64,000 nt of DNA, taken from assembly GCA_046563655.1 (NCBI GenBank), contig CM102290.1, positions 14,384,001-14,448,000 of the forward strand. The letters run 5' to 3'. Below the pieces are notes generated by a model. The model did not search any database and was not told the origin of the DNA. It saw only the letters and a list, made by a program, of their open reading frames with translations. The stretch comes from Yuukianura sp. NJ FZ-2021 (lineage: Eukaryota). Below are positions 262 through 56,600 of this stretch, piece after piece (within the stretch, counting starts at the first letter, position 1; every line of letters starts with the position of its first letter). Position numbers and translations under genes: made by a program.

Positions 262-1316
262 GTACTCCAGAACTCAAAGTTTGACATTGGAAATGGAATT
301 TTTGTAAAAGAAGGACTTTTTCTGAATCGAACTTACGCCCAAATTGTAAAACAAAAGTTGAACTCTGACATTCAGAACGTCAACTTCGGAAGTCCGACGG
401 ACGCGGCGAACCGAATCAACGGTTGGGTTCGTGACGTCACCAAAAACCGGATTTCGGCACTCGTGGACCACCGAACACTAAGTCCAGCCACTTCGGTCTT
501 CATGGCCAACGCCCTGTACTTCAGTGGCCAATGGGCACAGCCTTTTGATGACATGTCCACCAGTCCGGGCACTTTTGTGCTCTCGTCAGGTCAAAAGGTC
601 ACGGTGTCCATGATGCAAGTTGAATCCAGTTTCCACTACAACTACATTCCGGAACTGAGAGCTACCGGAATCTCACTACCGTTTCGCGACAACCGGTTCG
701 AACTGATTGTTTTGAAACCGGAACTGAACTTGAAGCAACTCGAAACGGACCTGAGAAATTACCCGCTCAATTTGATTTCAAATGAAATCAAAAAACAAAC
801 GAGGAATGTACTGCTCAGAATGCCAAAGTTCCGGCTCGACGTGCACTACGACTTGGTCGATGTTATGAAAAAGGTAATCACTTTTTAGAAAAAAAACTAA
901 TAAAAATTTCAGTTTTTCTTCAAAATTTTGAAATTTTTGAAGCTCGGGATCACAACGTTGTTTGATTCGACAATGGCAGAGTTGAGCGGACTCACGAAAG
1001 CGGGCGACAAGCATTTCGTGTCACAAATTGTTCACCAAACTGCTCTTGACGTAAGTCCGAATTATAATTATAGAAGTTTTTAAAATTTTGAAGAAAATTT
1101 CTGAAACTAAAATTTTGAAAATTTTTGTTTGAATAGGTTAATGAACAAGGCGCAGACGCTGCGGCAGCTACAAGCGTTTCATTTTACCCCATTTCTTCAC
1201 CGTCGTTTTTTACTGTGGATACGCCGTTTATGTTTCTGCTCAACGATAGGCTGACGGGTCCAGTTTTCATCGGACGATTAGCCAATCCCGCGAGAGCGTC
1301 AACGTCACATGATTGA
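262..1316 (+). CDS. Serpin (serine protease inhibitor), 3' exons only; 5' part not resolved or outside the window
   Basis: Exons 262-873, 943-1050 and 1137-1316 with GT-AG junctions. Serpin motifs: INGWVRDVTKNRI, NALYFSGQW, MPKF, hinge VNEQGADAAAAT, C-terminal DTPFMF...FIGRLANP; stop TGA 1314-1316. Confidence 0.92.
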
Positions 1317-18355: not shown

Positions 18356-19916
18356 GACTAATCTAATTAAGTCTCAAAAAGTTGCATCTTATAACTCTTT
18401 GTAGAAGTAGAAATCTGTGACACCCTTCCTTCCTCAGTAACTTGTGCATTTGAATCAAGTTGTGTCATGATCCAGAACCTAATGTCCGGACCACCGTACC
18501 TGTTCACTCTCTTTCTTCAACAACAAACCGATGCCATACAACTGTAGAATGACTCAAGGTCAAACGTTAGCAAATGACCCACTTCAGAATCAATCAGTTT
18601 TCTCGAAAATTGTGAATAGGCATGCAGATAAGTAACTTGTTTCTAGTCTTAAAAACGGAAAAGTTGAGTATGAAAAAGAAACTGTGACTAATTTTAGTAT
18701 TCAACTCACTAATTGTGGATATTTACAATATTACTAATCGGTGGTATAATTTTAAGTAGGAAACACCATTAACTAATTACTGTTAAACTCTAATTGGGTT
18801 TACAAAATCCAGTGTTCAAGGTCGTGCAAAAAGTTAAGTTCCCATCCAACCTATTAATGAGTGTACTAAACTAAAAGCACTTTTATCTTTTAGCATCGCA
18901 AAATTCTTGTTCTCAATCCAATAATAACCGCTGATCGTTTTCAATAAAACCCGGAAAACGGACGTCAACTTCAACACGTTTCTGTTTAGCTATTATTTAA
19001 CAGGAGTTTTAACGGGTTTAAATGTATCACTTTTAACATGTTGGTTAGAAGTTTTGGCTCGTCAAATTTTACTGTAATTGCTATAAATTTCTATGTCGAA
19101 CTGACTAGAACTAATTGTTAATCAAAAATCTTAAAATCGGTGAAAAGCTTCAACTTTAAAGCTTTAAAGGTTTAAGAAGACTATTGATACGACTTTGTCC
19201 GTCTGTCTGTCTGTCCGTAACATTTTTAGGACCCTTTGCTCCTACTTTTGTGAATCAGTTTGACTTTTAGTTAGAATTTAGAACTCATATTGTACCACAT
19301 TAGTTGGTTCAACGTAATATGGTCAAAAACAATTTGGTCAAAAAGTGATATTAAGCATATTAGCATATTAATAGCAATAACATAGAAAAAATATTACAAA
19401 GCAACCTGATCTAACCTGTTTGTAATAGTTGACATTTTCAGTTTTTGAGCTTTTCACTTTTTGATCAAATTACTATCTTGAACTTGATCACTTCACCTGC
19501 TACGCATTAGTTGCATAAAAGTGACGCAACACGGGAAATTTTTAGTCCACTTCAAAAATACCTGCACTACAACCTTGAGAATGTCGTCGGAGTGTCGTAG
19601 TGTGCGCATGAACAACAAATTTTTCTCACACACTGTCAAATCAGAGATCCTTAACGTTGATATGACGGTACAACTTCATAACTCATCGTGCGTCACAATC
19701 TGGGACGTAAATCCTTTGAATTCCATATATTTTTTGCAATTTCCCGCGTAAATTAGACTTTTTCATAAAATTAGGAAAGTAGAATTAGCCGAAAGGTGTT
19801 AAATTCGGGATTTCCAGCAATTTGCTACGTAAATTGTCTTTTTCATAGTAATTAAAATTAATCCCTAATCGTGTGAACAATTTTTATTTTAGTTGATTAC
19901 GCACGGAAAGTTTGTG

Positions 19917-19953: not shown

Positions 19954-20100
19954 AAAATTTCATAAAAGTTGGCTTAAAACTTTCAATTTCCAGAACTATT
20001 TCGTTGTAAAAGCAAAAAGACATATTTTTTTAAACACCAAGATTTTAAAGTTGAGTTTTTTTTTGTTGAATTTTTAGCTTCCTTTTAGCTTTTAGTCGAA

Positions 20101-23100
20101 ATGGGTTCCTTGAGCACTGTTGATGGCACTGACATTACGACGCAATTTAAAAGCAATGTCATCGACAACCCAATTGTGGAAAAAGACACGACAGGAAATG
20201 GAATTGCAATCATTGGAATGAGCTGTCGATTTCCAGGGGCAAACAACCCACAAGAATTTTGGGAAGTGCTTTGTTCAGGTCAAGACGCCATTCGCCCATT
20301 TCCGGCCGAAAGAGCACAGGAAGCCCAAAACCGCTTTGGAATGGAATCGGACATCAAGGCGGGATTTTTGAAATGTGGCGTGGATGAATTCGATGCTAAT
20401 TTCTTTGGAATTAGCCCGAGAGAGGCTCCGTTGATTGATCCCCAGCAGAGGCTTCTTCTGGAAGTGACATGGGAAAGCTTGGAAGACGCGGGAATCAATG
20501 CTCACGAACTCAAAGGGACGCAGACGGGAGTTTTTACTGGAATTTGGCAACCGGATTACGACAGGATTCTAAACTCCACGACGAAAGACGCGAATGATCT
20601 GTTCCATCGCTATCTCGGAAATGCTTTCAGTGCAACGGCATCACGAGTGTCCTACTACCTGGGTCTCCATGGTATGGAAAACCTAATTTCAAAATTAATT
20701 ACCTAATGAATTACTTGAACTAGTTGAATTACCTATTGAATTACTTGAATTACCTACTGAATTACTAAATTAATTATGTCCCTCCTAGTACCTGGGTCTC
20801 CACGGTACAGAAAAGAAAATTTGAACTTGAATTACACAATGAATTACTTGAATTACCTACTGAATTACTTAAATTAATCATGTTCCATAGGTCCAGCAAT
20901 GGCACTGGAATCTGGATGCTCTTCGTCTCTTGGCGCCGTACATGTGGCCTGTCAAAGCCTTCTTACTGGAGAATCTTCGCTTGCAATTGCGGGTGGCGTC
21001 AATTTAATTTTGATTGGAGCAAATCCATTTACAAATTCAACGGAAACGGGGGGTGACTCCATTGTTCTCTCCAAAGATTTCAAGTGTAAAACATTTGACG
21101 AGTCTGCTAATGGATTTGTGCGGTAAAAATCATAAATATCAACTGTTTAACTGAATATGGACAATAATAGGTTGAAGTACATTTGGGATCTTTTCCACAC
21201 TTTTCCCCACATTCCAAATCCTACTCTCCAAATTTTTTCCCCAAGTGCTGCTGCCGCCTGGGGCTTCCACCAAAATGTTGCCACGAATGGTGGGATCACG
21301 TTTTGGTGGGTTTCATTGGGGTGTTCATGTGAAATTCAAAAATAGAAGCACTGGAAGTTGCAATCCACGAATTTCTCACTTGTTCAAGAATTTTAAACAA
21401 CTCTGATCTTTTTTTGAATTTGCCACTTTTTCAATAATTTCAGACAATTCTGAAAATTCCGGGTACAAATGTATCCATCTGATGGGTACATTTGGTGGGT
21501 ACCCTTATCATTAGAAAGGGTGGGTACAAGCGGGGAGCCCAAGTTTACTTCAACCGAATAATGTGTATTCAAAGTGAAATAATGAAGTTAATCCTAATTC
21601 CAGGGCGGAGGGTTGTGGCGTTGTGATTTTGAAGAAGTTTGATGAGGCAGTGGCTGCTGGATGCAACATTTTGGGAGTTGTGCGCGGGAGTGCAATGAAC
21701 AACGACGGAAATGGATCCAGTTTTGGTACTCCGAATGCGCAGGCGCAAGTGCTCGTTTTTGAAAAGGCTCTGGAGAAAGCTGGAGTGACGCCAGATCAAG
21801 TTTCATTCCTTGAAGCTCATGGAACTGGCACTCCCGTTGGTACGCGTCTTTTTACTCTTCACATATATTTTTCATGTTATATTTATTATATATTATATTA
21901 TATTTTTGTAGGTGACCCAATCGAAATGGAAGCCATCCGGCGGGTTTATTCAAAAAATCGAAAAACGCCACTTTACATCAGTTCGGTCAAAACGAACATT
22001 GGGCATTGCGAAGCTGCCGCTGGAATTGCCAGTGTCATCAAATCAATTCTTTGCATGCAAAAGAAACTTCTTCCACCGCATTTGAATTTGAACAAACTGA
22101 ATCCATACATTGACTTGGACCGAATTCCAGCCATTGTTCCCACGGAAGTAACCGAGTGGACTACGCAAAAACGAATCTGCGCAGTAAGCTCTTTTAGCAT
22201 GAGCGCCACCAATGTCCACGTCATTCTGGAAGAGCCTCCTGCTCTTACAGATTCAAAAGTTGCGCCAAAAGGTGCGCAAACTCTTTGTGGACCATTGATT
22301 ATCACAATTAGTGCTAAATCGAAAGATAGTTTGAACTTGTTGGTTCAAGCGTATATCAACTATTTAGAAACCAATAGTAACGTGACTTTAGAAGACTTTG
22401 CATATGCTGTCAACGTCACTCGGGCACAACTGACGCACAGAATTGCTCTTACGGCGTCATCAATTGAAGAGTTGCTGGAAAAACTGAAACGTCAAGATTG
22501 GTCTTACGCCAAATCCAACGCTAACACAAAAATTGCTTTTCTGTTTCCTGGCCAAGGTTGTCAGTATACAGGGATGTTGAAGAATCTCGCGCAAACTTTC
22601 TCCGTTTTTGGAAATGCTCTGAACGAAGCCAATGAAATATTTGAACTTTGCCTCAACAAGAAACTGACGCATGTCATATGGGAAAATCCGACTCTGTTGA
22701 ACCAAACACTGTACTGTCAACCGGCAATTGTCGCCGTGGAATATGCCTTGGCACAACTTTGGAAATCTTTTGGAATTGTGCCTGAGGCTGTTCTGGGACA
22801 CAGTTTGGGCGAAATTAGTGCAGCGATTTTGGCGGGAGTTTTGTCATTGGACCAAGGTTTGAAATTAATCATTGCTCGGAGTCTTCTAGTGGATAAATTG
22901 GAGGAAGGATCCATGATAGCTGTAAGTTCCAGCGAGCAGCAAACAAGATCTATGATTGCTCAATTTCAAAAATCCCGCCAAGATGAGTGGATTGACGTAG
23001 CAGCGGTAAATTCAAACAGCGAGGTTGTTGTATCTGGACCAACAGAAACGATTGGCAAATTTTTGGAATTTTGCCGCCAAAAAGGCGTTGAAACAATTCC

Positions 23101-26100
23101 AATTTCAGCACAACACGCTTTTCATTCAAGACAAATGGACCAAGTTCTCAAACCATTTGGACTTGAACTGGAATCCATACTTGAAAAAACAGTGGCTCAA
23201 CCAATGGTAAAGTACATTTCTGGAACGGAGGCAAAAGTAATAGAAACTGGGGAAGTTTTTGGTCCTGACAATTGGACGCGCCACTTGCGCGACCCAGTTC
23301 AATTTTCGCGCGCGATTCAAATTTTACTCCAAGATGACTTCAAAACTTTTGTTGAAGTTGGGCCCAGTCCGGTTCTCCTTGGCATCACCATGACAAATGC
23401 TGCGGAAATTTCTTTAACCGACCTGTGTGTAGCACCGTCTGCTCGTCGTTCGGACACTACAGTCCAAACATTTCAAAATTCACTCATCAAGCTGTATTTA
23501 CAAGGTCACACAATTGACTGGAGAGGTCAAACGCCCAGCAGAGGTCAACATCTTCAAATCCCAAAGTATCAATTCCAACGACAATGTTACTGGATAGGCC
23601 AAACAGACGAGAGTGAAGAGAATGGACAAAACGGCTTCATGTTTAGTTCAACTGCACAACACGATAAGTTGCATCCGCTCCTTGGCTTTCCCATCTCCGC
23701 TCCTGTTTCGGTAAAAATGTTTGCAAATGTTGTAAACGTTAAAAATTACCAGTATTTGGCAGATCATAAAGTTGCAGGACTTACGGTATACCCCGCGGCT
23801 GCTTTCATGGAAACTGCATTTGCGGCTGCGCGTGAAATTTTACAAGAAGGCGGTACTCTCAAATGCCCTTTGACTTTAGAAAAATTTGGAATTGATGCGG
23901 CTCTGGACATTGGTTGCGGAGTTGAGCTGCATACGACAGTGGAGCAACTTGAAACTGAAAACGGAGTTTCATACAATTTGGAAATTTTCAAAAAGTTGAA
24001 AACCGGAAAATTCAAAAGAAACATTTCCACAACATTTGTGCCAGGTTGTAAAGTGGCAGATAAAATTCAAGTTGACATTGGCGACATCAAGCGACGCTTA
24101 GAAGCAAAAGAAAATGGAGTAGTGGGCCGTGTTTATTCTGAAATCGCCGCAAGGGGAATAGAATTCGGACCAAAATTTCAAAGCATCAAATCCGTCTACG
24201 TCTCAAAAATCGGTGAATTTTTAGCAGAAATTTGTTGTGAAGAAATTTTGAAATCGTCTGACTACATTTGTCATCCTATTCTAATTGACTCACTACTTCA
24301 GACAAAAGCCCTGCAAACATACTTTGTGGATACAAATAATGATTTGAGCGACGGTGAAAACAAAATATGTCTACCAATTGGAATTGAGCAAATCACGTGG
24401 TTTTCAGAAATGTTCACACAGAAACTCTACACTTATTGCTTTCCAAATGAAAACGATGCGTACTCTTCCGTATTTTTGATAAACGAAGATGGACATGTTC
24501 TGCTCGAATTAAAAGGAGTGGAACTAATTGAAACTACGGCTGAAACAGTGTTGAACTCCATTGAACACCAAACCCCAAATGAACTGAATTTTTCAGCCGA
24601 AGTTTGGCGCCCAATTCCAAGTTTTACTCCAAAGATATCAAATGTTGTCCAAAATTTCTGCGACATCTCCATACATTCTGACAAGATCCAAACAATTTTA
24701 CGGGAGCTACAACGCATTCACGACATCAGCCTATCTAATGAGAACTTTAGCAAGATTGGGTTATATTCAATTATATATGCAATTCAACATTGCAACTGGC
24801 CGTACCAGGTTAGCTAAAAAATTAAATCGCGAACTTCTACGAATGCACATTTGGCTTTTTGTTATATATATATTGATATATTGTTTTTATAATTATGATG
24901 TGATTTTTTATATTCATTCATTCATTATATTTATAGGTGGGATCGGTTCTGAAGCGCGAGGATTGGGTCGTACGAATTCCAGAGAATTTACCCCCGCAAG
25001 TTGTTGACTACTATCTGTACAAGCTTCAGAGCGCAGGATACATTCAGAGTATTCCAAATTCGGAAGGCACAGGATACCTCGTAGTAAAACAACTAGAATC
25101 GACTTCAATTCTCGAAAACAATATAGAATACATTATTGCCCAGGCACACAACTATGAAGAGCTCAGACTCTTTGCTCGATGGATGAAAAAATTCTATGAG
25201 GAGCTTCCGCTTGTGCTAAGTGGTAGAATGACTCCCATCGAGTACCACTTCCCTACTGACACGTCGAAACTTAGTGCAATTGCGTTCTACAACGACGACT
25301 TGATTTACCGGTTTCAGAGTAAACTTGCAATGGAGTGCTTAATTGAAACTGCTAGAAACTCGGTGATGCCGATGTCAGGGGCATCCAAAGAATGTGAATC
25401 ATCTGTTTGTCCCAGCGGCCAAAATTTAAATATACAAATTTTGGAGGTTGGTGGTGGAGGTGGAATGGCTACTCAAATGATTGTTTCTGAGTTCAAGTCC
25501 ACTTCAGTCCAATTTGAGTACACTTTTACAGATATTTCACCCATTCTTGTGGAAGCGGCTAAGCAAACATTGTCAAGCTACTCAGAACTTAGTTTCCAAA
25601 CGTTCGATATTGAACAAGATCCACTTGCGCAAGGGTATTTGCCAGGTTCATTTGATGTAATATTAGCATGTCAAGTATTACATGCAACGAGGAATTTGGA
25701 AGAAACGCTACAAAATTTGAGAGTTCTGCTCCGTCCAAGCGGTCGCTTGATTTTTACTGAGTCGTTTGGGAGTATAGAAAGCATAGAGTGCAGCTTTGGA
25801 TTGCTGGAAGGTTGGTGGAGATTCAACGATTTCAGAAAAGAGGCCGGAAACGTCACACCAATCGTATCTTCTAATATGTGGCGCGAACTTCTGATCAACA
25901 CTGGATATGAAAATGTTACGACTATTGAAACGGCGTTCCCGTTCGGAGTAACTGTAGCTAACAAATTAGATGCGTCGTGGTTGCCTAGTGCGACTGCATT
26001 AAGTTGTGAACATTCCTCAAGGCCTAGCTGGATATTGGTGTCGGATCAAAATTCGTTGGCTGGAAGTGTCGCCAAATTGCTTCGAGAGTCAAACAGAAAT

Positions 26101-29100
26101 GTGACATCGTACAGTGTCCAAGATTGCATCCAGAAAGTTGTGCTGCTAGCTTCCAACCTGGAAGGAATTTTGTTTTTTTGGACAGAAAATTTGGACGATG
26201 ACGTACCTGGCACGGTGGTCCGGATAGTGATTTTAATTGTCCAAAACGTTAAGAGGAATTTCAGCTTAGTAAGAACGGAATTTCAAACATATAATATTAG
26301 TGCTTCATCGCCTAAAGTTTCATTGATTTGAATGGAACGGGCTCGAAGTATTGGCCTGAGAAAAATTGTAAATATCATTGCAGTGAATTGAGGGAAATTC
26401 AAATCCGTAGTAATCTTAAGTAACACAAGTCCTAGTCCTCCCATATGCTGTATCATATTGCATACACTAGTAGGTATATTACTGCCTGCCACCAGCCGCC
26501 CTTCTTCTATTATGGAGAAAGCATGAGCAAAAGAGTGGAACCCCACCCCTAAATTTTCAGTTTTGTAAACTTTCACTCTCACTGCCGTCAATCATTCTGA
26601 AATCACTTCAAAACATTATTTTAAGTGTCCAAACTTAGAAATAGTTAATTTTCAGCTTGCTTCAAAAAACTTGACCCGTTGTTATCAAAACTCCGTCGTG
26701 TCAAAGGTAATTGTAATCGAAAAATATACCATTTCATTTCCTTATATTCTAATTTAATTCATCTGTTGTTTGTCATTATCATTTGCAGGATGTCTGGGAA
26801 AAAAAACTTCACGAAGAGAGAGCTCATAGAGCAGTTTGCTTCAAAAACAAACAATGAAAATGCGAAGTTGGCTATGGCCTATATTTTTAACATCCTGCAG
26901 TTGAGGTCCGAACACGTTGATGATGACGTGCAGAACAAACTACTTAGTTCGTTGAAAGCACTCGCTGCTTCAGGGGAAAAAAGATGGGAGAAAGCCAAAC
27001 GGACGAAAGATCGATATGAATCACAAAATCAAGAATGGTTGGATTCATTATTTGTGGTAAGTACTGGTACGCCCCAAATCATGGGCTTTCCCAAATTAAA
27101 AACTGTTTTACAAAAAAAAATATATAATAAATTTCTTAACTATGGTTTTTTCTAATTCATAGATGCCTGAGGGTTTAGTGGTAGATCAGTCTCCTCAACA
27201 AGCGAGCGGAAGTGGTGGTCGACCGTCGCTGCCGTTTGCAGAGTCCTCGGAAAGATCAAGAAGGCGTCATGCGTCGGCATTAAAAGAGACAGAACCAGAA
27301 ACGGATAAATTGGTGATGGCTGGGGCAATGGCAGCAAGATCCGAAAAACGTTTCGACTTGGCAAAAATCTTAGCGGAGGCAGCAAAAAGTCCCAACAGGC
27401 CCACAAAAATGCGTCGTATGCTGTTTCAACCAATGGAAAAACCTCAAGCCTATTCGCCAGATGAAGCCCTTGCTCTTTTGATAGACTGCGATTTCAGCAA
27501 AAGTCAATTCATGCGACTCCGAATGGGACTCAAGCAGAAGTCGGCGGATGTTTTTCCAAGATATGAGCTCCTACTTCAATCCAAATTAGCAGCAATGCCC
27601 CCGAAACATTCAATTTCTATTGCTAACAATGGGGAAAGGGCAGAAGTACAGCTTCAGTCACTATTGGACCACACTGCTTTTCGGATTGCAACATTAAATA
27701 GTGACGTAATCCTCGCTCACATGAACTTGAAGTCAGCCGATGCTCTGCCTGTTGAATTAATCTGCATTTGGGGTCTTGATGCTGCCACAGGCCACTCTAT
27801 CTACAGTCAAAAAGAATCTCAAGAAATTACAAGCTTGTTGGCTGTTTCAATGGTTCCTTTGCGTTTAGTCCGAGGAAATGATGTTCTCTGGATTAATCGG
27901 ACACCTCAGTCTTATAGATACTGTCGACCAATTTGTTTGTCGTTTGTAAAGGAAACTGATGAAGTGGTGAAAGCTGAAACGTCAAAAATTGAAGCTCAGA
28001 TCCAAAAACTTTCAGAATGCAGCATCAGCCTTTCGTCTAAGCACACGACGCAAGTCTCATACCGCATGTTCTTAACAATGATTGATGGAAAAATTTTGAG
28101 TCATCTAACGGGGACATCCAGTATGCAAGTTTGTCCAGTTTGTAAGGCTAAACCTACCATGTTCAACAATTTAGCAAATGTGACTAACGGAGTATTCACT
28201 CCAGAAGCAGCTGCGCTTCAGTTTGGTGTTTCACCTTTACACTGCTGGATTCGGTTCCTAGAATGCTGCTTGAACATTTCTTACCGGCTTGATTTTAAAA
28301 AATGGCAAGCAAAAGGTCCAGTTTTACAGAAATCCAAGAAAGATCGACAGAAACTTGTTGGAGACTTGCTGAAAAAAGAGATGGGATTGATTGTAGACAA
28401 AGTGAGGCAAAATGGATCAGGAACTTCAAATACAGGAAACACTGCACGACGAGCCTTCACCGATTATTCTACTTTTGCCCAAATCACTGGGCTAGATGAA
28501 GAGCTTATCAAAAACTTCAAAATCATTCTGATTTCCTTGTCATGTCAACTACCAATTAACCCTATTCTCTTCGGAGAACTATGTTCGAAAACAGCAGAAA
28601 TCTACGTCCAAAATTACAATTGGTTCTACATGCCGTCTTCGATTCACAAGATCTTAATGCACGGAGCGCAAATTTTAGCACACTCTATTTTGCCTGTTGG
28701 AGTCATGAGTGAAGAAGCTGGTGAATCACGACATAAGTACTTCCGAAGAGACAGAGAAATTCATTCACGGAAGAGAAGGCCGCAGGAAACGATGGAAGAC
28801 ATTTTTTATAGGGCACTTCAGTCTTCAGACCCAATTATTTCGAATTTCAGTCTGGAATCACGATTAAAAAAGAAGAAGAGTTTGGCTCTTCCAAGGGAAG
28901 TTGTGGAAATGCTACTACTTCCAGAGGAGCCGGAGCAAATGGACATCAGCGATGAAGCCGATGAGGACGATGACGGGACGGGGCTTTTAGAAGTGTTCAA
29001 GTTGCTCGAAAACCTCACGCTTGACACTGAAGAGATAGAATAGCCATTTTCGATCGTACTTGATTAATTTCATGAATATTTCTGCTGGTTCTCATTTAAA

Positions 29101-32100
29101 AATGGACATTTCCCTGTCACTACACGTGCAGAATCCATGTAGTTTGATAGTGCGCCATCCCAGTTTATCGCTTGGTAACGTAAAATGCATATTTATGTTA
29201 GATTTAAGCAAAATAAACAATTTAAACTCATATTTTGTTTTGGCCAACAAATTCGTTAATCCGGACCACTGTGCCTGGTAAAGAAGATAAATATATCGGA
29301 AGCCTCCTGCGGTTACTCAAAACTTATGCCGACACACACAAAGCCAAGAATGCAAAAATTCGAATTGTAACCCGTGGAGCCTTTGTCATTGGAGATGACG
29401 AAATTCCAAATCCAAAAAAAGCAGCGTTGTGGGGACTGGTGAGGGCCTTTCGCAATGAATATCCGAAACACGATCCATTTCTCATAGACTTTGGACAACT
29501 TGAAGCGGAAGACGAAGGACGTCAACTTTTTGCAACTTTGTTTAGTCCAAAGACCGAAGAAGCCACGGTATTTCGAGGTAACAGGACGTACGTGCTTCGA
29601 TTTGTCGACTCGTTACCGCAACGAACCAGAGTAAAACTTCCGAACTGCGAACGGTACCGGTTTATAAACCCAACGAGTGGCTACTTCGCTGATATTAAAA
29701 TTGGCCCAGACACGGCTAGTGATCTAAGAGAGAACGACGTTGAAGTAGCGGTTAGAGCTTGTGCACTCAACTTCAAAGACATCTTTTGTGTACTCAAACC
29801 AAAAGAATTTGAAATTCCAAAACAGCATTTGGACCATATTGGGCTTGATGTTTCCGGAGTCGTTACTCGAGTAGGTCCGAAAGTTACTCGCTATCAGGTT
29901 GGGGATGAGGTCGTCGGGATCTCTATCAATGGCGCTATCGCGAGTCACACGGTTTCGTCGGAACTGGGGTTGTGGAAAAAACCAAAAGGAATCTCATTTG
30001 CGTCTGCCGCTGCATGCCCAACCGTGTATTTGACGGCGCACTACGCATTGCATCATTTAGCAAAATTACAGCCAGGCGAACGCGTCCTAATTCATGCTGG
30101 ATCTGGTGGCGTAGGCCTTGCAGCTATTGACCTTGTAAAGAAATGTGGAGGCCAAATTTTTGCCACGGTTGGATCAAAACGAAAACGTACATTTTTGGAA
30201 CAATTTTGTGGAATCACACATGTTTACAACTCAAGAAACACCCACTTTGGACAACAAATTTTAGATGACACAAATGGACAAGGGGTAGACATAGTGCTAA
30301 ACTGTCTCACTGGACCAGGGTTCAAAGAAGCCTCTCTTTCAGCCACTGCACTTAACGGTAGGTTTGTTGAATTGGCCAAAATGAACATCTGGACAACTGA
30401 AGAGGTAAGCCAGCAGCGTCCAGACGTTCAATACAAGTTTATCGAACTGGAGGCCCTTGATTTTAGAGGAAAACAAGACTTTCCTGACATCATGCACAAA
30501 ATTGAACAAGAATTTGGAGACAGCTTTCCAACACTACCGTGTAAAGTCTTTTCTTTGGAAAATATTCAGTCTGCTTTTTACTACCTTCAAGAAGCCAAAC
30601 AAATCGGAAAAGTGGTGTTGCGAATGCCAACAATAGAAGTGAAGCATGGATCACTCGTTCATTCTTACCAAATGTTCAATTCCTGTTCTACTTATATTAT
30701 TACCGGTGGCCTTGGAGGAATAGGAATAGAATTGACAAAATGGATGACAACCAAGGGAGCTGCAAATATTGTTTTGGTGGGTAGACGTCCACCTTCTGAG
30801 CAAGCGCAGGCCGTTGTTGATAATTTGAGAAACAAAGGATTCAACATACTCGTTTTAAATTTGGACATTTCAAAAGAAGAAGACTGCGACAGACTTTTCG
30901 GAGCAGTTGAACATTCCGATACTCTACCGCCGCTAAAAGGGATTTTCCATGCTGCTGGAGTACTGCATGACGCTGCATTTGAAACCCAAAGTTGGGAGTC
31001 ACTCCAAGCGTCACTAGCTCCAAAAGCTCACGGCGCATGGAATTTGCACTGGCGCACGCTCAATACGGATTTGGAATTCTTCGTTTTATTTTCTTCCGCA
31101 GCGTCGCTGTTTGGCAGTGTGGGCCAAGCACCGCACGTAACTGCAAACAAGTACTTGGATGGATTCGCTTGGTATCGACACTCATTGGGTCTGCCTGCTA
31201 CGAGCATCAACTGGGGATTGTGGTAATAAATTATTTAGCTGCCATTTACTCCAAATATTGGTTTTAAATTTAACTGTGTTAAGTACAAACCAGTAGGAAA
31301 AGCTACGTGGTATAATGCATCCTGCGCAGAGCGGAGCCGGATAGCTCAATTGGTAGAGACACTTCCAGCACTGTAAAGATGTGGGTTCGAGCCCCACTCC
31401 GTTTAATATTTTTTCTGCACTGTCATTCTTTGTAAAACTAAAAACAGAAATTGTCTGGAATAACAACCAATGAATTTTTCCGTATGCAACTGTAAACACC
31501 ACTTTCTTTTATGCAGGAAGGGCATTGGGGCAGGCAGTGGAATCACGAATGCTCAGGAAAACATAATTGGGCTCAAAGGTTTTCCAGCTTCCGAGGGATT
31601 GAAAGCACTAGAGCAAATGATGAATATGGATATGCCGCAAGTGGGATTCGTACCCACACGCGGTTGGAAAATAATGAAATCTTTCTTTTCCTTGGGTCAT
31701 TACTGGGACGAAGTGGAGATTCAGAAAGATGCGGTTGACAGATTGGCAGAAATGCAAAAGGAAATGGATATAATCAAAGCTTGTGATCCAAGTCTACGAC
31801 AAGAAAAACTTCGTGCATTTATCGAGTCCATCGTCAAAGAAACATTAAGACTTCCAAAAGACGAAGTTCTGGACATTGACCAGCCAGTAAGTGAAATGGG
31901 AGTGGATTCTCTGATGGGCATGGAAATGAAAACACGGATAGAAAAATTAACTGCTCGTAGTATACCAATCAGCGCCATGCAGGAGAATCGAACTATCCGA
32001 AAATTATCCGCATATTTAGCTCGGGCTCTATGGACTGACCAGGATCCAACTACAACTTCTCACCTAGATCAGAGTGAAGTATTGAAATCTGACTCAATTT

Positions 32101-33335
32101 TACCTTCCGAAATGAGAGAACATTTTGCAAATAATATCTCAGGGCAAGCAGTGGTGAACAGAGATTTTAAATCAGTGTTGGTGACCGGCGTGACGGGTCA
32201 CTTTGGAGCTCACGTTCTTGCAGAAATTCAGAAAATGAACAAGGACATTCACATTTTTTGTTTAGTTCGGGCAGCTTCTGACGAAACTGGAACCGAAATT
32301 CTTCGGAAATCTTTGGCATACTATGAGCTAGAGGTCAACTTTAACCAAATCTCTGTTTTTGCTGGAGACGTTTGTCATGACCTCCTTGGATTATCGGAGG
32401 AAAAATACGAGTTGTTGACTGGAAGAGTTGACGCTGTTGTGCATTGTGCCGCAAAGGTCAATCATATTGAAAGTTACTTTGACGGTTCTGCGTATGACAT
32501 GAGATCTGTCAATGTCCAAGGCCTTCTGCGCATCCTCAGATTCTGTACGGATGGACGACTCAAGCATATCATTTATCCATCGGCTATGTTATGTGTAACG
32601 GAAGTGGATGAGGATGGGGCACTTCCAGAACGTTGGCTACCATTAAATAGTTATGAGAAAATACAAAATGGATATCTTCAGTCCAAAAGCATTTGTGAAG
32701 CACTTCTGCAACAAGCCGCTGAAGCAGGAGTTTTGGTCACGCTTTTCCGAATTCCATTTTTGTATGCGAATTCTGTTACGGGAATTCCGAACAGAGGATT
32801 TGATCACATCTGGACTCTACTTTCAACCTGTATCAAGTTAAGAAAATTTCCAAACCTTGTTCACACTGGAGGAGTTCCACTATTTCCGGTCAATATTTGC
32901 GCCCAAATTTGCGCAGAAATATTCATGAACAGCGACACTGAAACTGGAGTGTACAATCTCATCAACAACAAACAAATTACACAACAAGACGCCGTAGAAA
33001 TTGGGGCCGAGCTGGGGATTGAATTTGAAGTGGTTGAATTTACTGAGTGGCGGGACGCTGCATTTGAAGACTTGGAAGACGATTTGATGAAACCTTTGTT
33101 TCCAATCTACGCAGACGCAGAAACGGGACAATCAAATGTGTTTACCTTTCATTCTTTGGGAGACGAGTGGAATCGCGCCCTCCAAAAGAACTACAGTCCG
33201 AAAACTCTTAAAAACCTACCGGGAATTGAAGCGATAAATTCGTTTTCTCCTCAAGAGTTATTTCGACGGCGATTGGTGAATTCTACAAAACAAGAACAAG
33301 GAAAAATTTCAAAAAAGAACAAAATTTATTCTTAA
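20101..33335 (+). CDS. Type I reducing polyketide synthase KS-AT-DH-cMT-ER-KR-ACP-thioester reductase (~2990 aa when reconstructed); exon 5 interrupted by a Transib transposon in this haplotype
   Basis: Exons 20101-20671, 20891-21122, 21604-21839, 21912-24808, 24937-26210 joined to 29279-31222, and 31517-33335 sum to 8973 nt (2991 codons). KS: DPQQRLLLE, ESGCSSS, EAHGTGT, NIGHCEAAAG. AT: GQG, GHSLG, HAFHS. DH: HKVAGLTVYP, DSLLQ. cMT: LEVGGGGG, VLHAT. ER: IHAGSGGVG. KR: TGGLGGIG, GVLHD. ACP: GVDSL. R: TGVTGHFG, GYLQSK. Confidence 0.93.
21170..21556. mobile_element. Non-autonomous TIR element (MITE) in PKS intron 2
   Basis: Left end ggttgaagtacatttggg (21170) is a near reverse complement of right end cccaagtttacttcaacc (ending 21555). 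aataat flanks both sides (possible TSD). Internal gggtac subrepeats. Confidence 0.65.
26211..29273 (+). mobile_element. Complete autonomous Transib DNA transposon (RAG1-related), 3063 bp
   Basis: TIRs CACGGTGGTCCGGAT and ATCCGGACCACTGTG (14/15 match) plus a second matching block at TIR positions 27-37. GC-rich 5-bp TSD CCTGG at 26206-26210 and 29274-29278. Encodes an intact Transib transposase. Confidence 0.96.
26790..29043 (+). CDS. Transib transposase (RAG1-core-like DDE), 715 aa, two coding exons
   Basis: Exons 26790-27056 and 27163-29043 with a phase-0 GTAAGT...CATAG intron; probable 5'UTR intron 26707-26788. Catalytic triad in WGLDAATG, MIDGK and SEEAGES. Zn ligands CPVC and HKILMH. Also CRPI, GVSPLHCWIR, GTSNTGNTARR. 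AATAAA at 29212. Confidence 0.93.
31335..31404 (+). pseudogene. tRNA-like pseudogene or SINE head in PKS intron 5
   Basis: A box TAGCTCAATTGG, perfect T-arm gtggg-TTCGAGC-cccac, partial acceptor stem. The anticodon arm does not pair well. Confidence 0.55.
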
Positions 33336-33662: not shown

Positions 33663-36485
<2,823 letters not shown>

Positions 36486-50600: not shown

Positions 50601-53600
50601 TTATCTCACTTCACAACTGTCTGACTGTTTTGGATTAGTGTTCTCTCGGTCCACTTCCTTAGTTGTAGCATAACCTTCGTAGCAACGATGCAACTTCAGT
50701 CGAATCGGCATCACTTTTCCTTTCGGTCCTTTCGACAGCGTAGGCGACGTTCCGGTTACGGCCGTGACACTGTTGGATGTCGACGGAATCACGACGACAT
50801 CGGCTGGAGTTGGTTTGAACTTGAGTACGGCCGTGTCAATTCCAGCATCTCCAGCTTGCACTTCATTTGATTTGAGTATTCCTGAATTCGGTGTCGTCCC
50901 GCCTCCTGCTCCAGAATCTTCGGTTTTTCTATGATTCGGTTTCGGACTCGTAGAAGTTCGGAGAACTCCGGAAAATTTGGACTTGAGTGACGCTGAAGGG
51001 GTCCAACTGCACCCACTTCCTTCGCTGCTTCCAGTAAATCCAGAATCTTGTTCCGCTGGAGCGGATTTGTCCGGATGTCCAGCGATTTTGTCCAGCGATA
51101 ACGCTGGAACTGGATCAGGTCCATTTTCTTTTTTCCCGCCACCGTCAATATTGTTGTTGTTCAGAAGCGTCTCCGTCGTGGCCCGATTTTTGCCGAATCT
51201 CAAAATGAGTTTTGGTCCGCCCCCTTCTGAGATGATTTTGACTTGGGAAGATTCCGTTTTGGACAAATCATCGTCATCTTCGTTGTTCCGTTTGCTTTTC
51301 TTTGACTTTTTCTTCTTCTTGCGTTCTCCACTTTTCCCTCGCTCATCATCAGCAAAATCTTGCATAATCTTCTCACGGAACATCAAACTTTGTCTTTTGA
51401 GTTCTTCCATTGGTGGAGGTGGGACTGGAACGCTCACTTCAGCGATTCCGCGCTTCTTCGGCGGTCGTCCTTTGGCTTTCTTAGAGTCCTTGTCACTCAA
51501 GTGATTTGAATCAACTGGTCCCGCTGTTCCTGTCGTACTGCATGTCGCCGAAGAGGAATTGAAATCAGCAAACTTAATTTTCAACTTCGGAGTTGGATGA
51601 TTAACGGCAGTTAGGCTCAAAGTAGACTTGACTTGTGCTGGGCCACTGGATGCTGCGGCAGTATCTCCTCCAGCATCGACTACTGGCGGTGGAACAAAGG
51701 CAGTAGTACTTCGGCTAGGTTTTGCTGCTGCTCGTACTCTCTTCCTCGAACTTGTTTCCAGCAGTTGAGCCGCCAAGTCACCGCGCCACCTCTCTCCTTT
51801 GACTGGATCCAGTAGTCCGAGCGCCGCCATTTCACGGTTCACACCGCGGTTTCTCTTTTTCTTCTCCTGGACTGGAATTGGCGGTGGAGTGGGAAGGGGA
51901 CAAAGGTCACTTGGTTCCAATCCATAGTCGTCTTTTCCACTAGGTATGATCTCCATTGACGCAACTGCTTTTGGTATCGTAATAACTCCTCTGCCATACG
52001 GATGAAAGTGTGAATGGGGGTAGTCTAATCCTGGATTAGTCGGATATCGTCCATCCATGTTCATGTCTTGATTACAATATTGACGCAATAGTTCTTTTTT
52101 CCTCATACGTCTCAGATTTAGTGGATTGTTCATCATGGTTGGAGTGGAATTCATACTGCCAAAAAGTGGTTCATGATGATGCAAATGTGTTGAGGCTTGT
52201 TGATGATGGTAAGTTGAGGCTTGTGTTATGGAATTGGAACTGCTATAGTTGGCATCTAAAAATGGACCTTTGATTTTAACTTTCAGTTGATTACGGGAAT
52301 GATTGTCTTCAGAGAACGTAGTTGTGAAGGAATCTTTAGAACTGGACAGACTTGACTCTCCTCCTGGTCCACTCGACGGCAAATTCTGACTAGTCTGACT
52401 TTTAGTCTGGCCCACCGTTACATGATTCACAGCGACTGGAACGTCTGGCCCTCCTCCAGCAGCGTTTAAGTTTGATTTTGGTACTGGAGAAGTCAGAGCT
52501 TCCAGTGTTTTGTCCAGTTCTTCAAAATCTGGAACAGACGCCATTCCCATGACATTGGTCGAGTTACTGCCCATCATGAGTGATGCAAATTCAGCAGCCG
52601 AAGATGACTTCCGTCCATCAAAGTTAGAGTGTCCAGCATATCCTCCGATGTCAACAGTAGAAGGATTGAATGTCCGCATGTCAACTGGAGCAATGAGGGA
52701 CGTTTGCAGTCCAGAACTTGACCTTTGGCGAGCCGCTTGCCCTCCAATATCATTTTCCGCGATGGTAGATTTTTGACGCGGTGAATTTTTCTCGACTCGC
52801 GGCGGCGGTTGTGGTTCACTTTCCTCTGAATCCTCGGATTTTCTCGTATCACCGCAAATTTCACTCGACTTCCTCCGATCCCGTAAACTTCTCAGATCAA
52901 ACTTATCTTCCGCGTTTTCTTCAAATTCGTCTAGGTCAATGTCGTATACTGTACCAGCCAAATCTTTTCTCACCAGTACATTCTTGCCTTTCGTTTTTCC
53001 ACGGCCAGGACCGCCGCGGCGCGGTGTCGTTGATCCCTTGGCTCCTCTGCCTGGCGACGTTCCACTTGCTTTCCTCTCTCCTTTTCCTTTGCCTTTTGGA
53101 CTCGCTTCTTCCGCAGCCATTTTTTCTTGTTTGACTTTCGGTGTGGTCGGTCTGCGGCCTCTTCCAGCTCCAGCGCCTTTCGGACTAACAGCGATTACTT
53201 GAGCTGCTATGATTGGTGGAGCGTAGTTAGCTCCTCCCCCTTTTTGTGTTGGTTGAATGTTATCGTTGGTCTTATTGGACAAAATGGCGCTGAAATCCGA
53301 AACAGTAGTGCTGGGTGACGTAGAAACCACGGTGGTCATAGCCTTGACAGCATTTAGTGTTGGAGAAACGAGTGGTGAATTATTGCTTGACAGATTTGTA
53401 CAACTGCTGGTAGGACTGCCCAGCATTTTCTGATACTGGTTCATTCTGAACTGGAAGTTGATGTCCATTGCGTTAGCAGCATTTTGTGCTCCAAATCCAG
53501 TATTTTTCATTGGCATCATATGATTGTGGGGATGATTGTTTGAAGCCTGGATGACACTTTCAATGATTTGAGCCACCGTGGACTGCGGCGGTGGTGGTGG

Positions 53601-56600
53601 GGCTGCCATGGGATTATTTGAAGAAGCTAGCAGCAGCGACGGCGACGTCAACGGTGGTTTGGACAACGGCGGCATTCCAATTCCAGAAGTGACGACTGCC
53701 AGCGACGTTGATTCCGACGGTCGCCTTCTTTCACTTGGCGAATGCAACGGTGGATCCATGGAGCCTGGAATGCCTAGCAACGACGACGGCGGTCCCAAAT
53801 TACTAAAGTGGTGAGCAAATCCAAGAGAAAAGGAATTTGAAACAACCGGAGGTGAGGACATTGGAGTTGAAATTGACAGTTTGGATTTAGAGCTCAAATG
53901 ACTGTTGCCATGGAAAAATGGTAAATTTCCACTTGACAACGACGTAACAACATTAGCCAACGTTGAGTTCATTGGAAACGGTAAAAATGCTGGATGAGAA
54001 GACTGGTACGGCGGTGGTGCTGGTACTGTTCCGGTATAAGTTGCTGTCAGTCCTGGTGGTAAGTTGATTCCAGGCGGTAGAGTTGGACTATTGTTGACTG
54101 TTGCCATGGAAACCAAATTGGTCGGAGCAGTTGCCATGGAAACCAGATTGTTCGGAGCTTCCATGAGGAGACCAAGGTGATGTGACTGGAGTGACAAGAG
54201 TCTGTCCAAAGATTCTTTCGGTTGCATCATCAATCCAAGTCCACCAGAATTCACTTCTTCCTTCATCACGTGACCTTGCTGCGAAATTTGACCTTGACCT
54301 TGCTGTGACATTTGACCTTGACCTTGCTGTGACATTTGACCTTGAAGGATTTGCGGAGAATGGAAATTTTGATTATGGAGTGGCATCAATTTTGGAGAAT
54401 TTTGATGAAATCGTGACTCCTCTTTGGCCAATGATTCTGGATGGCCCATTTTCCCAGTATAGAGATGCGAATGCGTGAAATTCCAACGGTCATCTTCAAA
54501 TTTAGGAAGATCTGGCGGCGTGGAACGCGTTGTCACGGCAACCTTCGGACCAGATTTTGTCAGATCACAAACATTTTCATCCGCCTCTGACTCTTGGAGT
54601 CTTCCAGCCTCAAACGCTGGTTCTGGAACAGGAACTGGAGTGACAGGAGTCGTGGCTGGAACAATCGCTGGAGGTGGCGGAGAGCTTTTGATTGGTGGAG
54701 CCGGTGGTTCTTCGGAAGTAATATCTTCAAATTCCGGTGGTCCGTCTGCTTCTGTCTTCTGTGTCCCACCGGACTTTTGTTTTTGTTGTAACCTCAACTT
54801 CTCTACTAAATTGATCGTCGCTTGAGCTGATTCTTCTTTGTTGTCTTCCCGTGTCAGCGCTTGAGAAAATGAAAATGACAGCGATTCTCGCTTGTTCTCT
54901 TCCTCTCCAGCGTCTCGACCGTAGTCCGCGGATACGCTTCGAGCCAAATCATAGAGATCATTGTCAAAGTCCAGAAGATCAGTAGGTTTCGGCCCATGCG
55001 TTGTCAGGGGTGACGGTGAGAAGATGGATTTCGGCATCGATGGGGCCGTGACCGGTACAGGTATCGGTACCGATACCGGCGGTACCGCTGTTGACATTAC
55101 TGCCGGAACATGACTTTGTACTTGGATTGATACAGTTGGAGTGGGCGACAGAATTGGCGATGGATCGATTCTCGGCCTCTTCGCTTCCGGTTCTTCGACT
55201 TCTATCTTATGCACAAGCGTTTTGTCCTTATCTGGAGGGAGCGGTGACAAGCACCGCGGCGGTGGTTGGAACTCTTTTTGAGGAAGTGGTAGAGGTGATA
55301 AGCACCGTGGAGCCAGTGGCGACAAAAGTGTTGGCGGTGGGACAGGTACTGTAGGAATTTGAGCTTTTCGCGGAGAATCAGCTACTGCCGGTGGTTCCAC
55401 AACTTTGCTTTCGTTTTCCTTTTCATCAGCACTTCCGGAATCTTCCGAGAGGAGCCCGAGCTCTCGCTTTTTCGTTTTCGGCATCGGTCGGTTCTTAAGC
55501 TCTGGAGAAATGTTCGACCCTGAAGACCTGGACTGAGTTCGTCCACGCGGTTTTACCGGTACCGGAACTTCGGTTTTGATTTCTCCTTCTTCCGAATCCG
55601 AACTCAGCGCTAATTCATCCCGAATCAGCGATTTCTTGCTGCCGACGCTCGAGCTGGTAACTTTCTCCTCTTTGGTTGGTGCTTTGGCTTCACCGGCGTT
55701 CCGTTTCTCTTCGGTCTTCGTGAAAATGCCGGAAGTTCTGGAAGCGGCGATATCGACTTTTCCGGAGATCGTCGCTGTGTCGGGTTTTGATTGGCGTTTG
55801 ACTGGCGACACGGCAGCGGTTGTTCCACGGCTTGTGATTGGTGGTCCGGGTGACGATGGGCGCAGAAGCGGAACAGCACTTCTCCGTGGGCCAGACTTCG
55901 GAGGTCCAGTAGTCTTGGGCGTAGGTTTGACTCTGGGGGGTGACACGGACTCTGTTCCATTTCGGCCCGAAGTCGTCGGGAGCCGCTCGGAAGTTTTAAG
56001 CTTCTTACCTGGCCCTGACGCTTGAAGTGGAACGAGAGTGGGGAGCTGGATTGGGGAGGGTCTCGGAGGAGATACTTTGGAACGTACTGGAGATACTTTG
56101 GATCGTACTGGAGATGCTGAACCGGGAGAGGAGGAGCGTGACGAAGATGAGGATGAGTTGTATGACGACGAATCGGAAGAACTTGTGCTGCCGGAACTAC
56201 TGGAACTGGAACTGGAACTTCGCTCACGACTTCTACGACATGCTGACTGCGACCCCTTGTCAAGAAAGGGCCAGTCAACACTTTTCAGTTCTTCCTTTAC
56301 TGGTGACTTCCTTTCAGAATCCTTTCGACCCAGCTTAGTAGTACCATGAGGAAGTTGATTTCCTACAAAAAATCAAAAAAATTTCAAAATTTTAAGTTTT
56401 TCGTCTTTTTATGTAATTCTGCTCACATCAAGGTTGTTTAAATCGAAATTTTGTTTTTTCTTAACAGGTTATGCCATAACTCCTGTTTTAAAAAAAATTG
56501 TTTGTTTTGATTTTTTGTCTGCAAAGTTGACCCCGGGCCATGTAAAGCAATGGAATTCTCGTACAAAAAAAATTTTTTTTGTCGTAATTTTGAAAAAAAA

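What the first reader, a model, noticed from the sequence alone, without database searches (positions are those of the whole stretch)
26206..29278. Intact RAG1-like Transib inserted inside a PKS coding exon; removing it restores the frame exactly
Seen: ...gac gta CCTGG|cacggtgg...ccactgtg|CCTGG taaagaa.... Deleting the element and one TSD gives DDDVP-GKEDKYIG with no frameshift. The rest of the ~9-kb PKS CDS has no stops or frameshifts, and the transposase ORF is uninterrupted. Inference: a very recent insertion by a probably still-active Transib, likely polymorphic. It would be a natural knockout allele of the PKS and a candidate for biochemical study, since few active Transibs are characterised. 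A speculative alternative is somatic excision acting as an on-switch. That would need loss of 5 bp (or a net multiple of 3) during hairpin repair.
Basis: partly seen in the sequence, partly recalled or inferred. Interest (0 to 1): 0.8.

Follow-up and report, generated by a model that had tools for sequence, protein, structure and literature searches.

The report
Polymorphic Transib transposon splitting a PKS exon
A complete RAG1-like "Transib" jumping gene sits inside a coding exon of a large polyketide synthase gene of an invertebrate animal, and reads from the same sample also hold the exact uninterrupted gene, so this is a recent, still-segregating insertion of a known kind of transposon.

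Summary
Window 26211-29273 is a 3063-bp element. It has 15-bp inverted ends (CACGGTGGTCCGGAT / CACAGTGGTCCGGAT) and an exact 5-bp duplication, CCTGG.

It encodes a two-exon, 715-aa transposase. This matches the solved Helicoverpa zea Transib transposase at E 4.9e-101 and keeps the DDE triad and four zinc ligands.

The element splits exon 4 of a five-exon KS-AT-DH-MT-ER-KR-ACP-R polyketide synthase gene. Removing it plus one CCTGG gives a 9045-nt, 3014-aa open frame. As assembled, translation stops at codon 1801.

Public contigs carry the exact empty site (joint 26205->29274, 5 shared letters) in 3 of 4 runs laid, all from the sample that may be the window's source. Contig depth there is 217/245/21, against 51-69 for element contigs in one run and none in another. 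So the insertion is not fixed, and the element is not a high-copy repeat.

Current activity is inferred, not shown. I found no support for a somatic "on-switch". The nearest database protein is 63% identical.

Verdict: a new member of a known kind, and a good candidate for an active Transib. Interest is moderate.

The parts
26206..26210 (.). Left copy of the 5-bp target site duplication CCTGG. It is native PKS sequence, the Pro codon plus GG of the Gly codon.
26211..29273 (+). Complete autonomous Transib element, 3063 bp
26211..26248 (+). Left RSS-like terminus. It comprises the heptamer CACGGTG, a 15-bp inverted repeat (26211-26225), a 23-bp spacer and the block CCAAAAC at element positions 31-37, with A at positions 34-35.
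   Evidence: criteria from PMC1131882
26790..27056 (+). Transposase exon 1, 89 codons. It carries the N-terminal RW...WL motif shared with full-length Transib transposases.
27057..27162 (+). Transposase intron, 106 bp, GTAAGT...AG, phase 0 (inferred)
27163..29043 (+). Transposase exon 2, 626 codons plus stop (P0001). Catalytic D at 27778-27780, D at 28084-28086 and E at 28723-28725.
29236..29273 (-). Right RSS-like terminus, read on the minus strand. Heptamer CACAGTG, 15-bp inverted repeat (29259-29273), and CCAAAAC again at positions 31-37.
29274..29278 (.). Right copy of the target site duplication CCTGG
20101..20671 (+). PKS exon 1 (start codon, N-terminal part of KS)
20891..21122 (+). PKS exon 2 (KS, with the active-site Cys motif)
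21604..24808 (+). PKS exon 3 (C-terminal part of KS, AT, DH)
24937..26210 (+). PKS exon 4, part upstream of the insertion (methyltransferase domain and the linker after it)
29279..31222 (+). PKS exon 4, part downstream of the insertion (ER, KR)
31517..33335 (+). PKS exon 5 (end of KR, ACP, NAD-binding reductase release domain, stop)

Best explanation
An autonomous Transib DNA transposon has recently inserted by cut-and-paste into a near-palindromic, GC-rich target (TACCTGGTA) in exon 4 of a type I highly reducing polyketide synthase gene of an invertebrate animal. The element is of the RAG1-like DDE transposase superfamily.

The insertion duplicated CCTGG. It makes a null or severely truncated allele: translation stops 41 codons past residue 1759, so ER, KR, ACP and the reductase release domain are lost.

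The uninterrupted allele still exists in the same sampled material, at higher depth, so the insertion is segregating or mosaic rather than fixed.

- Shown: the anatomy of the element, the homology and catalytic residues of the transposase, the frame restoration, and the existence of the exact empty site.
- Inferred: that the transposase is expressed, spliced and still active; that this copy moved by the nick-hairpin mechanism shown for HzTransib; and that the allele abolishes PKS function.
For: Element anatomy:
- 14 of 15 matching inverted ends and identical 5-bp duplications.
- Both ends carry CAC at positions 1-3, a heptamer, a 23-bp spacer and an A-rich block with A at positions 34-35. These are the Transib and RSS23 hallmarks in PMC1131882.

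Transposase:
- P0001 matches HzTransib chain 6pqn at E 4.9e-101 over residues 96-589. Pfam RAG1 scores 25.1 bits against a cut-off of 25.
- D206, D308 and E521 align with HzTransib D125, D224 and E435.
- C324, C327, H495 and H500 are conserved.
- The spliced 715-aa protein is collinear with twelve 677-768-aa homologues from its first residues.
- P0001 departs from the consensus at 7 of 84 columns that are at least 90% conserved. Six of the 7 also depart in its nearest relative P0003 (5 with the same state), where the seventh is a gap. So these are lineage traits, not decay.

Host gene:
- Pfam domain order KS-AT-DH-MT | ER-KR-ACP-NAD_binding_4.
- The restored coding sequence is 9045 nt with one terminal stop. 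As assembled, the first stop is at codon 1801.

Polymorphism:
- The joint 26205->29274 skips 3068 bases with 5 shared letters, in X1 (depth 216.6), X3 (244.6) and X4 (21).
- The X1 empty-site contig has 0 differences on the 1205 flank letters listed for it. The equal-length X4 contig has 1 difference over its 1349 letters.
- The two listed X1 element contigs have depth 51 and 69. X4 has no depth in any of the 14 element bins.
Against: - All three runs with the exact empty site come from one sample, which may be the window's own source. Independent population evidence is therefore missing.
- No contig in the listed pieces bridges a filled junction (153 pieces were not shown). The read data therefore do not independently confirm the filled allele, only the assembly does.
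- Contig depth is a poor measure of frequency or copy number, as the tool itself warns.
- No RNA run was available, so expression and splicing of the transposase are untested.
- Element depth is below locus depth, so no additional fixed copy, and hence no donor copy, is evident.
- The transposase lineage departs from near-invariant residues of the family (C144A, G207A, H371N, K396Q, R540P; N524H was flagged only). Any of these might affect activity.
Confidence: 0.85

Rival explanations
1. The insertion is real and polymorphic, but the element is no longer mobile. On this reading it is a single relic copy whose transposase has lost activity despite an open frame.
For: - Element contig depth (51-69) is below locus depth (172-217), and no other piece of the element lies in the 64-kb window.
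- The transposase departs from the consensus at 7 of 84 highly conserved columns, one of them next to the first catalytic Asp.
- The nearest database relative is only 63% identical, so no sign of a recently expanding family is on record.
Against: - An inactive element cannot make a new insertion, yet this one is young. The duplications are identical, the flanks differ from the empty allele at 0 of the 1205 letters listed (X1) and 1 of 1349 (X4), and both alleles are present in one sample.
- Six of the 7 departures also depart in the 63% relative (5 with the same state), so they are old lineage traits that survived selection.
- The DDE triad and zinc ligands are intact.
- Element contigs stop one base outside each terminus. 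This hints that the element has more than one flank in the reads.
Confidence: 0.25
2. The empty-site sequence is not the ancestral allele. It is the product of precise excision, somatic or germline, that rejoined the two CCTGG copies by microhomology. That would make the insertion a reversible switch of the PKS.
For: - Transib and RAG-type cleavage releases the element, and a 5-bp direct repeat could guide microhomology-mediated repair (established knowledge; inference).
- The exact empty site and the filled site coexist in one sample.
Against: - The empty form carries most of the locus depth: about 217 in total against 51-69 for the element in X1.
- One run (X4) has the empty site at depth 21 and no element sequence anywhere in 14 bins.
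- No footprint variants (small insertions or deletions at 26205/29274) appear in the indel or joint tables.
- Diverged paralogous copies are collinear and empty at the same place.
- Hairpin repair normally leaves footprints (established knowledge of RAG and hAT-type excision).
Confidence: 0.06
3. The element in the PKS is an assembly chimera, with a transposon contig joined wrongly into the gene.
For: No listed public contig bridges a filled junction. The contigs that cover the flanks join across the element.
Against: - A misjoin would not create an exact 5-bp duplication of the target, flanking complete inverted ends, at a near-palindromic GC-rich site typical of the family.
- Element contigs in X1 carry the window's own flanking base at each end, G at 26210 and C at 29274. 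This is weak support.
Confidence: 0.03

Closest known systems
HzTransib of Helicoverpa zea (structures 6pqn, 6pr5 and related entries)
   Same: - Homologous transposase, E 4.9e-101 over about 490 residues, with the DDE triad aligned.
- 5-bp target duplication and ends that start with CAC.
- Size of 3-3.5 kb.
- Also first seen as an allele-specific insertion at a metabolic gene: 3518 bp, duplication GCTCG, in the CYP6B8 promoter region (PMC1852546, passages).
   Different: - This protein is 715 aa, with a roughly 185-residue N-terminal region encoded partly by a separate exon. The HzTransib chain is 497 aa and the protein deduced in PMC1852546 is 489 aa.
- This insertion is in a coding exon, not a promoter.
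- Activity is untested here. HzTransib transposes in vitro (PMC4840297, passages).
Canonical Transib families of Kapitonov and Jurka, e.g. Transib1_SP of the sea urchin
   Same: - 3-4 kb element with a transposase of about 700 aa.
- 5-bp duplications at GC-rich, sometimes palindromic targets.
- 38-bp termini with a heptamer, a 23-bp spacer and an A-rich nonamer-like block.
- Transib1_SP also has a two-exon transposase (PMC1131882, passages).
   Different: - The heptamers here are CACGGTG and CACAGTG. The second is identical to the RSS consensus heptamer given in that paper, not to the Transib consensus CACAATG.
- The second conserved block is CCAAAAC, not AAAAAAATC.
- The best database relative is only 63% identical.
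Nozomi and Hayabusa, Transib elements of Drosophila (preprint 10.64898/2026.08.26.747230)
   Same: Recently mobile, population-restricted Transib elements with a C...G type 5-bp duplication (CARTG for Nozomi) and a conserved DDE core (abstract and sections 11 and 20).
   Different: - Different host group.
- No non-autonomous derivative was seen here.
- Copy number appears to be below one per genome equivalent in the runs laid.
RAG1/RAG2 and RAG-like (ProtoRAG) transposons
   Same: The RAG1 core is distantly homologous (Pfam RAG1 25.1 bits; RAG1 chains at E 6e-06 and weaker). The ends are RSS-like and the duplication is 5 bp.
   Different: There is no room for a RAG2-like gene. Only 579 bp and 230 bp lie outside the transposase gene. 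This is a Transib, not a RAG-like transposon.

Membership tests
Transib superfamily of DNA transposons | Transposase homologous to Transib transposases and the RAG1 core | tested here: met
   6pqn at E 4.9e-101. Pfam RAG1 PF12940 scores 25.1 bits against a cut-off of 25. 265 database proteins at E <= 1e-10; named rows include 'V(D)J recombination activating protein 1' of Folsomia candida and 'V(D)J recombination-activating protein 1' (UniRef name) of Brassicogethes aeneus.
Transib superfamily of DNA transposons | Catalytic DDE triad | tested here: met
   D206, D308 and E521 of P0001 align with HzTransib D125, D224 and E435 (alignment; residue numbers from the preprint; positions).
Transib superfamily of DNA transposons | 5-bp target site duplication | tested here: met
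   CCTGG on both sides. The empty site in the reads has one copy, with 5 letters fitting either side of the joint.
Transib superfamily of DNA transposons | RSS-like termini: CAC at 1-3, a heptamer, a spacer of about 23 bp, and an A-rich second block with A at positions 34-35 | tested here: met
   Both ends were aligned. The criteria come from PMC1131882.
Transib superfamily of DNA transposons | Autonomous element of 3-4 kb encoding a transposase of about 700 aa | tested here: met
   3063 bp and 715 aa.
Transib superfamily of DNA transposons | [quoted passage not shown] | tested here: inconclusive
   One site only. The duplication is 4 of 5 G+C in a region of about 40% G+C. The 9-bp target TACCTGGTA is palindromic apart from its centre.
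Transib superfamily of DNA transposons | Cut-and-paste activity through a nick-hairpin mechanism | not testable with these tools
   The only indirect evidence is the coexistence of filled and exact empty alleles.
RAG-like (RAG1L plus RAG2L) transposons | A RAG2-like gene beside the RAG1-like gene, within the inverted ends | tested here: not met
   Only 579 bp lie before and 230 bp after the transposase gene. I ran no family search on the small reverse-strand ORFs.
Type I highly reducing polyketide synthase (host gene) | KS, AT, DH, MT, ER, KR and ACP domains in one polypeptide, plus a release domain | tested here: met
   Pfam hits in that order, with a terminal NAD_binding_4 reductase. The best long homologue, P0123, aligns collinearly across the insertion point.

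The most novel reading that the evidence does not exclude
The element is transposing now in the sampled animals. Three points fit this reading, all:
- Total element depth is below single-copy depth.
- Element contigs stop one base outside each terminus, keeping only G on the left and C on the right. Other contigs keep 30-letter overlaps. This is what a de Bruijn graph gives if the ends are joined to several different flanks that share a C...G duplication.
- One run of the same sample has the empty PKS site and no element at all.

Together these would mean a newly arrived or mosaic, low-frequency, currently active RAG1-like transposon. Its ends carry an exact RSS heptamer. Its loss through the 5-bp microhomology could restore the PKS.
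Probability: 0.2. Interest if true: 0.65.

Novelty: new member of a known kind. Interest (0 to 1): 0.4.

Why it matters
Few Transib elements are known to be active. They are the closest living model for the transposon ancestor of RAG1 and the V(D)J signal sequences.

This copy has a complete 715-aa transposase and complete RSS-like ends, one with the exact CACAGTG heptamer. It is caught as a young insertion with its empty site still present, which makes it a practical candidate for biochemical work.

It also provides a natural loss-of-function allele of a 3014-aa animal polyketide synthase. That could help assign the enzyme's product, although at least two diverged paralogous copies in the same reads may buffer the loss.

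None of this changes what is known about how Transib works.

Tried and rejected
- **Whole genome.** None is held for this window, so genomic copies could not be counted.
- **RNA.** No RNA holder was listed among the sequencing runs, so expression and splicing are untested.
- **Run X5** (other study, organism B). It has contigs with 0-1 differences on the flanks, no cover on the element, and no contig over the junction of the near-identical allele. This is uninformative.
- **Earlier findings of this scan.** Nothing by place or by sequence.
- **Metagenome scan** for the terminus pattern. It gave 1 match, L001, on a contig with no blastn or tblastn similarity to the element or its transposase, so it is a chance match.
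- **Third TIR-like 15-mer** at 18484-18498 on the minus strand, 2 mismatches. There is no further similarity to the element, so it is probably chance.
- **Alignment of the restored PKS to ten distant homologues** across the insertion point. The site lies in a variable linker with indels among homologues, so the alignment cannot test exactness. The read joint does that instead.
- **Splice acceptor of PKS intron 4.** My first choice (31447) gave internal stops. I corrected it to 31516.
- **ARAGORN** found no tRNA in the window.
- **Literature.** A search for 'Transib' with 'polyketide synthase' listed 3 papers. From the listing alone, none concerns a Transib inside a PKS gene, and I did not read them.
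- **Structure prediction** was not run, because the sequence match to a solved Transib structure already covers the core.
Full report
**1. The observation**

The sequence at the stated coordinates is as described. CCTGG lies at 26206-26210. The element runs from 26211 to 29273 (3063 bp), and CCTGG recurs at 29274-29278.

- The termini are inverted repeats of 15 bp, CACGGTGGTCCGGAT and CACAGTGGTCCGGAT, with one mismatch at position 4.
- The 15-mer, with R at position 4, is found without mismatch only at the two ends. With up to two mismatches allowed, dinucleotide shuffles give a mean of 0.08 matches, and none of 100 reaches the three observed.
- The third match, at 18484-18498, shares nothing else with the element.
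- Beyond the 15 bp, both ends carry CCAAAAC at element positions 31-37, which is 23 bp after the heptamer.
- The inverted repeat tool also extended the arms into the flanks. This is because the target, TACCTGGTA, is a 9-bp palindrome apart from its centre.

**2. The element**

Exon 2 (27163-29043, 626 codons, P0001) matches the solved Helicoverpa zea Transib transposase (6pqn) at E 4.9e-101 over residues 96-589. It matches vertebrate RAG1 chains only weakly. Pfam RAG1 scores 25.1 bits against a cut-off of 25.

In the alignment, D206, D308 and E521 of P0001 stand opposite the residues that the preprint 10.64898/2026.08.26.747230 (section 11) names as HzTransib D125, D224 and E435.

I aligned P0001 with the 120 listed homologues (265 proteins had E <= 1e-10).
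- 88 columns are at least 90% conserved. The query keeps C324, C327, H495 and H500.
- Counted inside its span, it departs at 7 of 84 such columns. The median among homologues is 2, and 11 of 120 depart at 7 or more.
- Six of the 7 also depart in P0003, the nearest relative at 63% identity, 5 of them with the same state. At the seventh, P0003 has a gap. I read them as lineage traits rather than decay.

A short upstream exon (26790-27056) joins exon 2 in phase across a 106-bp GTAAGT...AG intron. The resulting 715-aa protein aligns from its first residues with twelve homologues of 677-768 aa, including the N-terminal RW...WL and GRP motifs.

The element therefore meets every sequence criterion that Kapitonov and Jurka give for autonomous Transibs (PMC1131882, passages):
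- 3-4 kb in length;
- a transposase of about 700 aa;
- a 5-bp duplication;
- CAC at positions 1-3;
- a heptamer, a 23-bp spacer and an A-rich block with A at positions 34-35.

Only 579 bp lie outside the transposase gene on one side and 230 bp on the other. There is no room for a RAG2-like gene.

**3. The host gene**

Pfam gives KS (N-terminal part) at 20089-20706, KS (C-terminal part)-AT-DH at 21578-24817, a methyltransferase at 24937-26205, ER-KR at 29226-31226, and ACP with an NAD_binding_4 reductase at 31464-33335. tblastn with four database PKS proteins shows a collinear gene with one further small KS exon.

My model has five exons: 20101-20671, 20891-21122, 21604-24808, 24937-31222 and 31517-33335. 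The four introns are GT-AG.
- With 26211-29278 left out, the coding sequence is 9045 nt, or 3014 aa, with a single terminal stop.
- As assembled, the first stop is codon 1801, 41 codons after native residue 1759. The product would end after the methyltransferase and lack ER, KR, ACP and the release domain.
- The splice sites are inferred from homology and consensus, not from RNA.
- The insertion point lies in a linker that varies in length among distant homologues. Protein alignment therefore cannot prove exactness.

The neighbouring genes are a serpin, a DHX35-like helicase whose best named relatives are insects and molluscs at 52-55% identity, and a large Ser/Pro-rich ORF. They indicate an invertebrate animal from a poorly sampled group.

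**4. Is it polymorphic?**

One search found five public runs. Four are from one sample, which may be the window's source. The fifth (X5) is from another study. All are contigs rather than raw reads.

- A contig joint from 26205 to 29274 skips 3068 bases, which is the element plus one duplication. Five letters fit either side of it. It is present in X1 (depth 216.6), X3 (244.6) and X4 (21), that is 3 of 4 runs.
- The X1 empty-site contig has 0 differences on the 1205 flank letters listed for it. The equal-length X4 contig has 1 difference over its 1349 letters.
- The two listed element contigs in X1 have depth 51 and 69. Listed contigs in X3 range from 28 to 104.
- X4 has no depth in any of the 14 element bins, although a contig joins across the element.
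- X5 has contigs with 0-1 differences on the flanks but does not cover the junction of that allele, so it says nothing.
- Two diverged copies of the PKS region, about 83-91% identical, are collinear and empty at the same place (joints 26149->29277 and 26190->29281). The gene therefore has paralogues or old duplicates.
- No small insertions or deletions are listed at the junction.

The insertion is therefore not fixed. The empty form looks like the ancestral allele on a background that is identical or nearly so, and the element is not a high-copy repeat.

Caveats:
- This is one sample.
- Contig depth is only a rough guide.
- No listed contig bridges a filled junction (153 pieces were not shown).

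**5. A hint of other sites**

Neighbouring contigs overlap by 30 letters, for example 29388-29417 and 30540-30569 in X4. The element contigs are different.
- They begin at 26210 and end at 29274, so they carry only one flank base on each side (G and C).
- The flank contig runs straight through the empty joint.
- In X3 the left element contig has one further base that did not align to the window.

In a de Bruijn graph this pattern is expected if the termini are joined to more than one flank and the flanks share C...G duplication ends. Other Transib families have such ends: CASTG and CAWTG in PMC1131882, and CARTG for Nozomi. This is an inference from contig ends, not a demonstration.

**6. Mechanism**

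By homology to HzTransib, I infer the following steps:
1. A transposase dimer binds the two RSS-like ends.
2. It nicks at the CAC and forms hairpins on the flanking DNA.
3. It inserts the released element with a 5-bp stagger.

HzTransib transposes in vitro with invariably 5-bp, GC-enriched duplications (PMC4840297, passages). None of these steps was tested here.

**7. Comparison and novelty**

The case closely parallels the discovery of HzTransib as an allele-specific 3518-bp insertion at CYP6B8 (PMC1852546, passages). It also parallels recently mobile Drosophila Transibs (preprint).

What is new is modest:
- a transposase lineage with no database relative above 63% identity;
- an exact RSS-type CACAGTG heptamer on one end;
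- a coding-exon insertion in an animal PKS, caught together with its empty site.

A search for 'Transib' with 'polyketide synthase' listed three papers. By listing alone, none is on this subject.

**8. Verdict**

Activity is plausible but unproven, and the on-switch idea is unsupported. This is a new member of a known kind, with interest of about 0.4.

Noticed in passing
window 31335-31405 (+): A tRNA-like sequence lies inside PKS intron 4. Rfam tRNA scores 32.3 bits against a gathering score of 29 (E 0.0018), but ARAGORN calls no tRNA anywhere in the window. It may be a degenerate tRNA gene or a tRNA-derived repeat.
   Followed up: partly
window 20672-20890: PKS intron 1 holds a near-copy of the end of exon 1 together with the start of the intron, around 20790-20810. 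It also holds short repeats of a GAATTAC-type unit, as if the exon-intron border had been duplicated.
   Followed up: no
window 24500-31000, seen in run contigs: At least two diverged, collinear copies of this PKS region exist in the same runs. They are about 83-91% identical, with depth 105-193. One also occurs in the run from another study. They are paralogues or old duplicates and might buffer loss of this copy.
   Followed up: partly
window 50601-56372 (-) and 56671-58269 (-): There is a 1923-codon open frame, with a 532-codon one next to it, in a stretch of 43-51% G+C. The surroundings are roughly 30-39% G+C. The translation of the long frame is Ser/Pro-rich and of low complexity. Neither frame has a Pfam family.
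   Followed up: partly
window 18484-18498 (-): A 15-mer resembling the element's inverted end, with 2 mismatches. It has no other similarity to the element and is probably chance.
   Followed up: yes
window 262-888 (+) and 35395-36093 (+): A serpin exon and a DHX35-like helicase exon. The best named relatives of the helicase are insects and molluscs at 52-55% identity, so the host is an invertebrate with no close sequenced relative among the named entries.
   Followed up: partly
window 26709-26788: A possible intron in the 5' untranslated region of the transposase gene. It has GTAATT at 26709 and an acceptor CAG ending at 26788, just before the start codon at 26790. This is inferred only.
   Followed up: no
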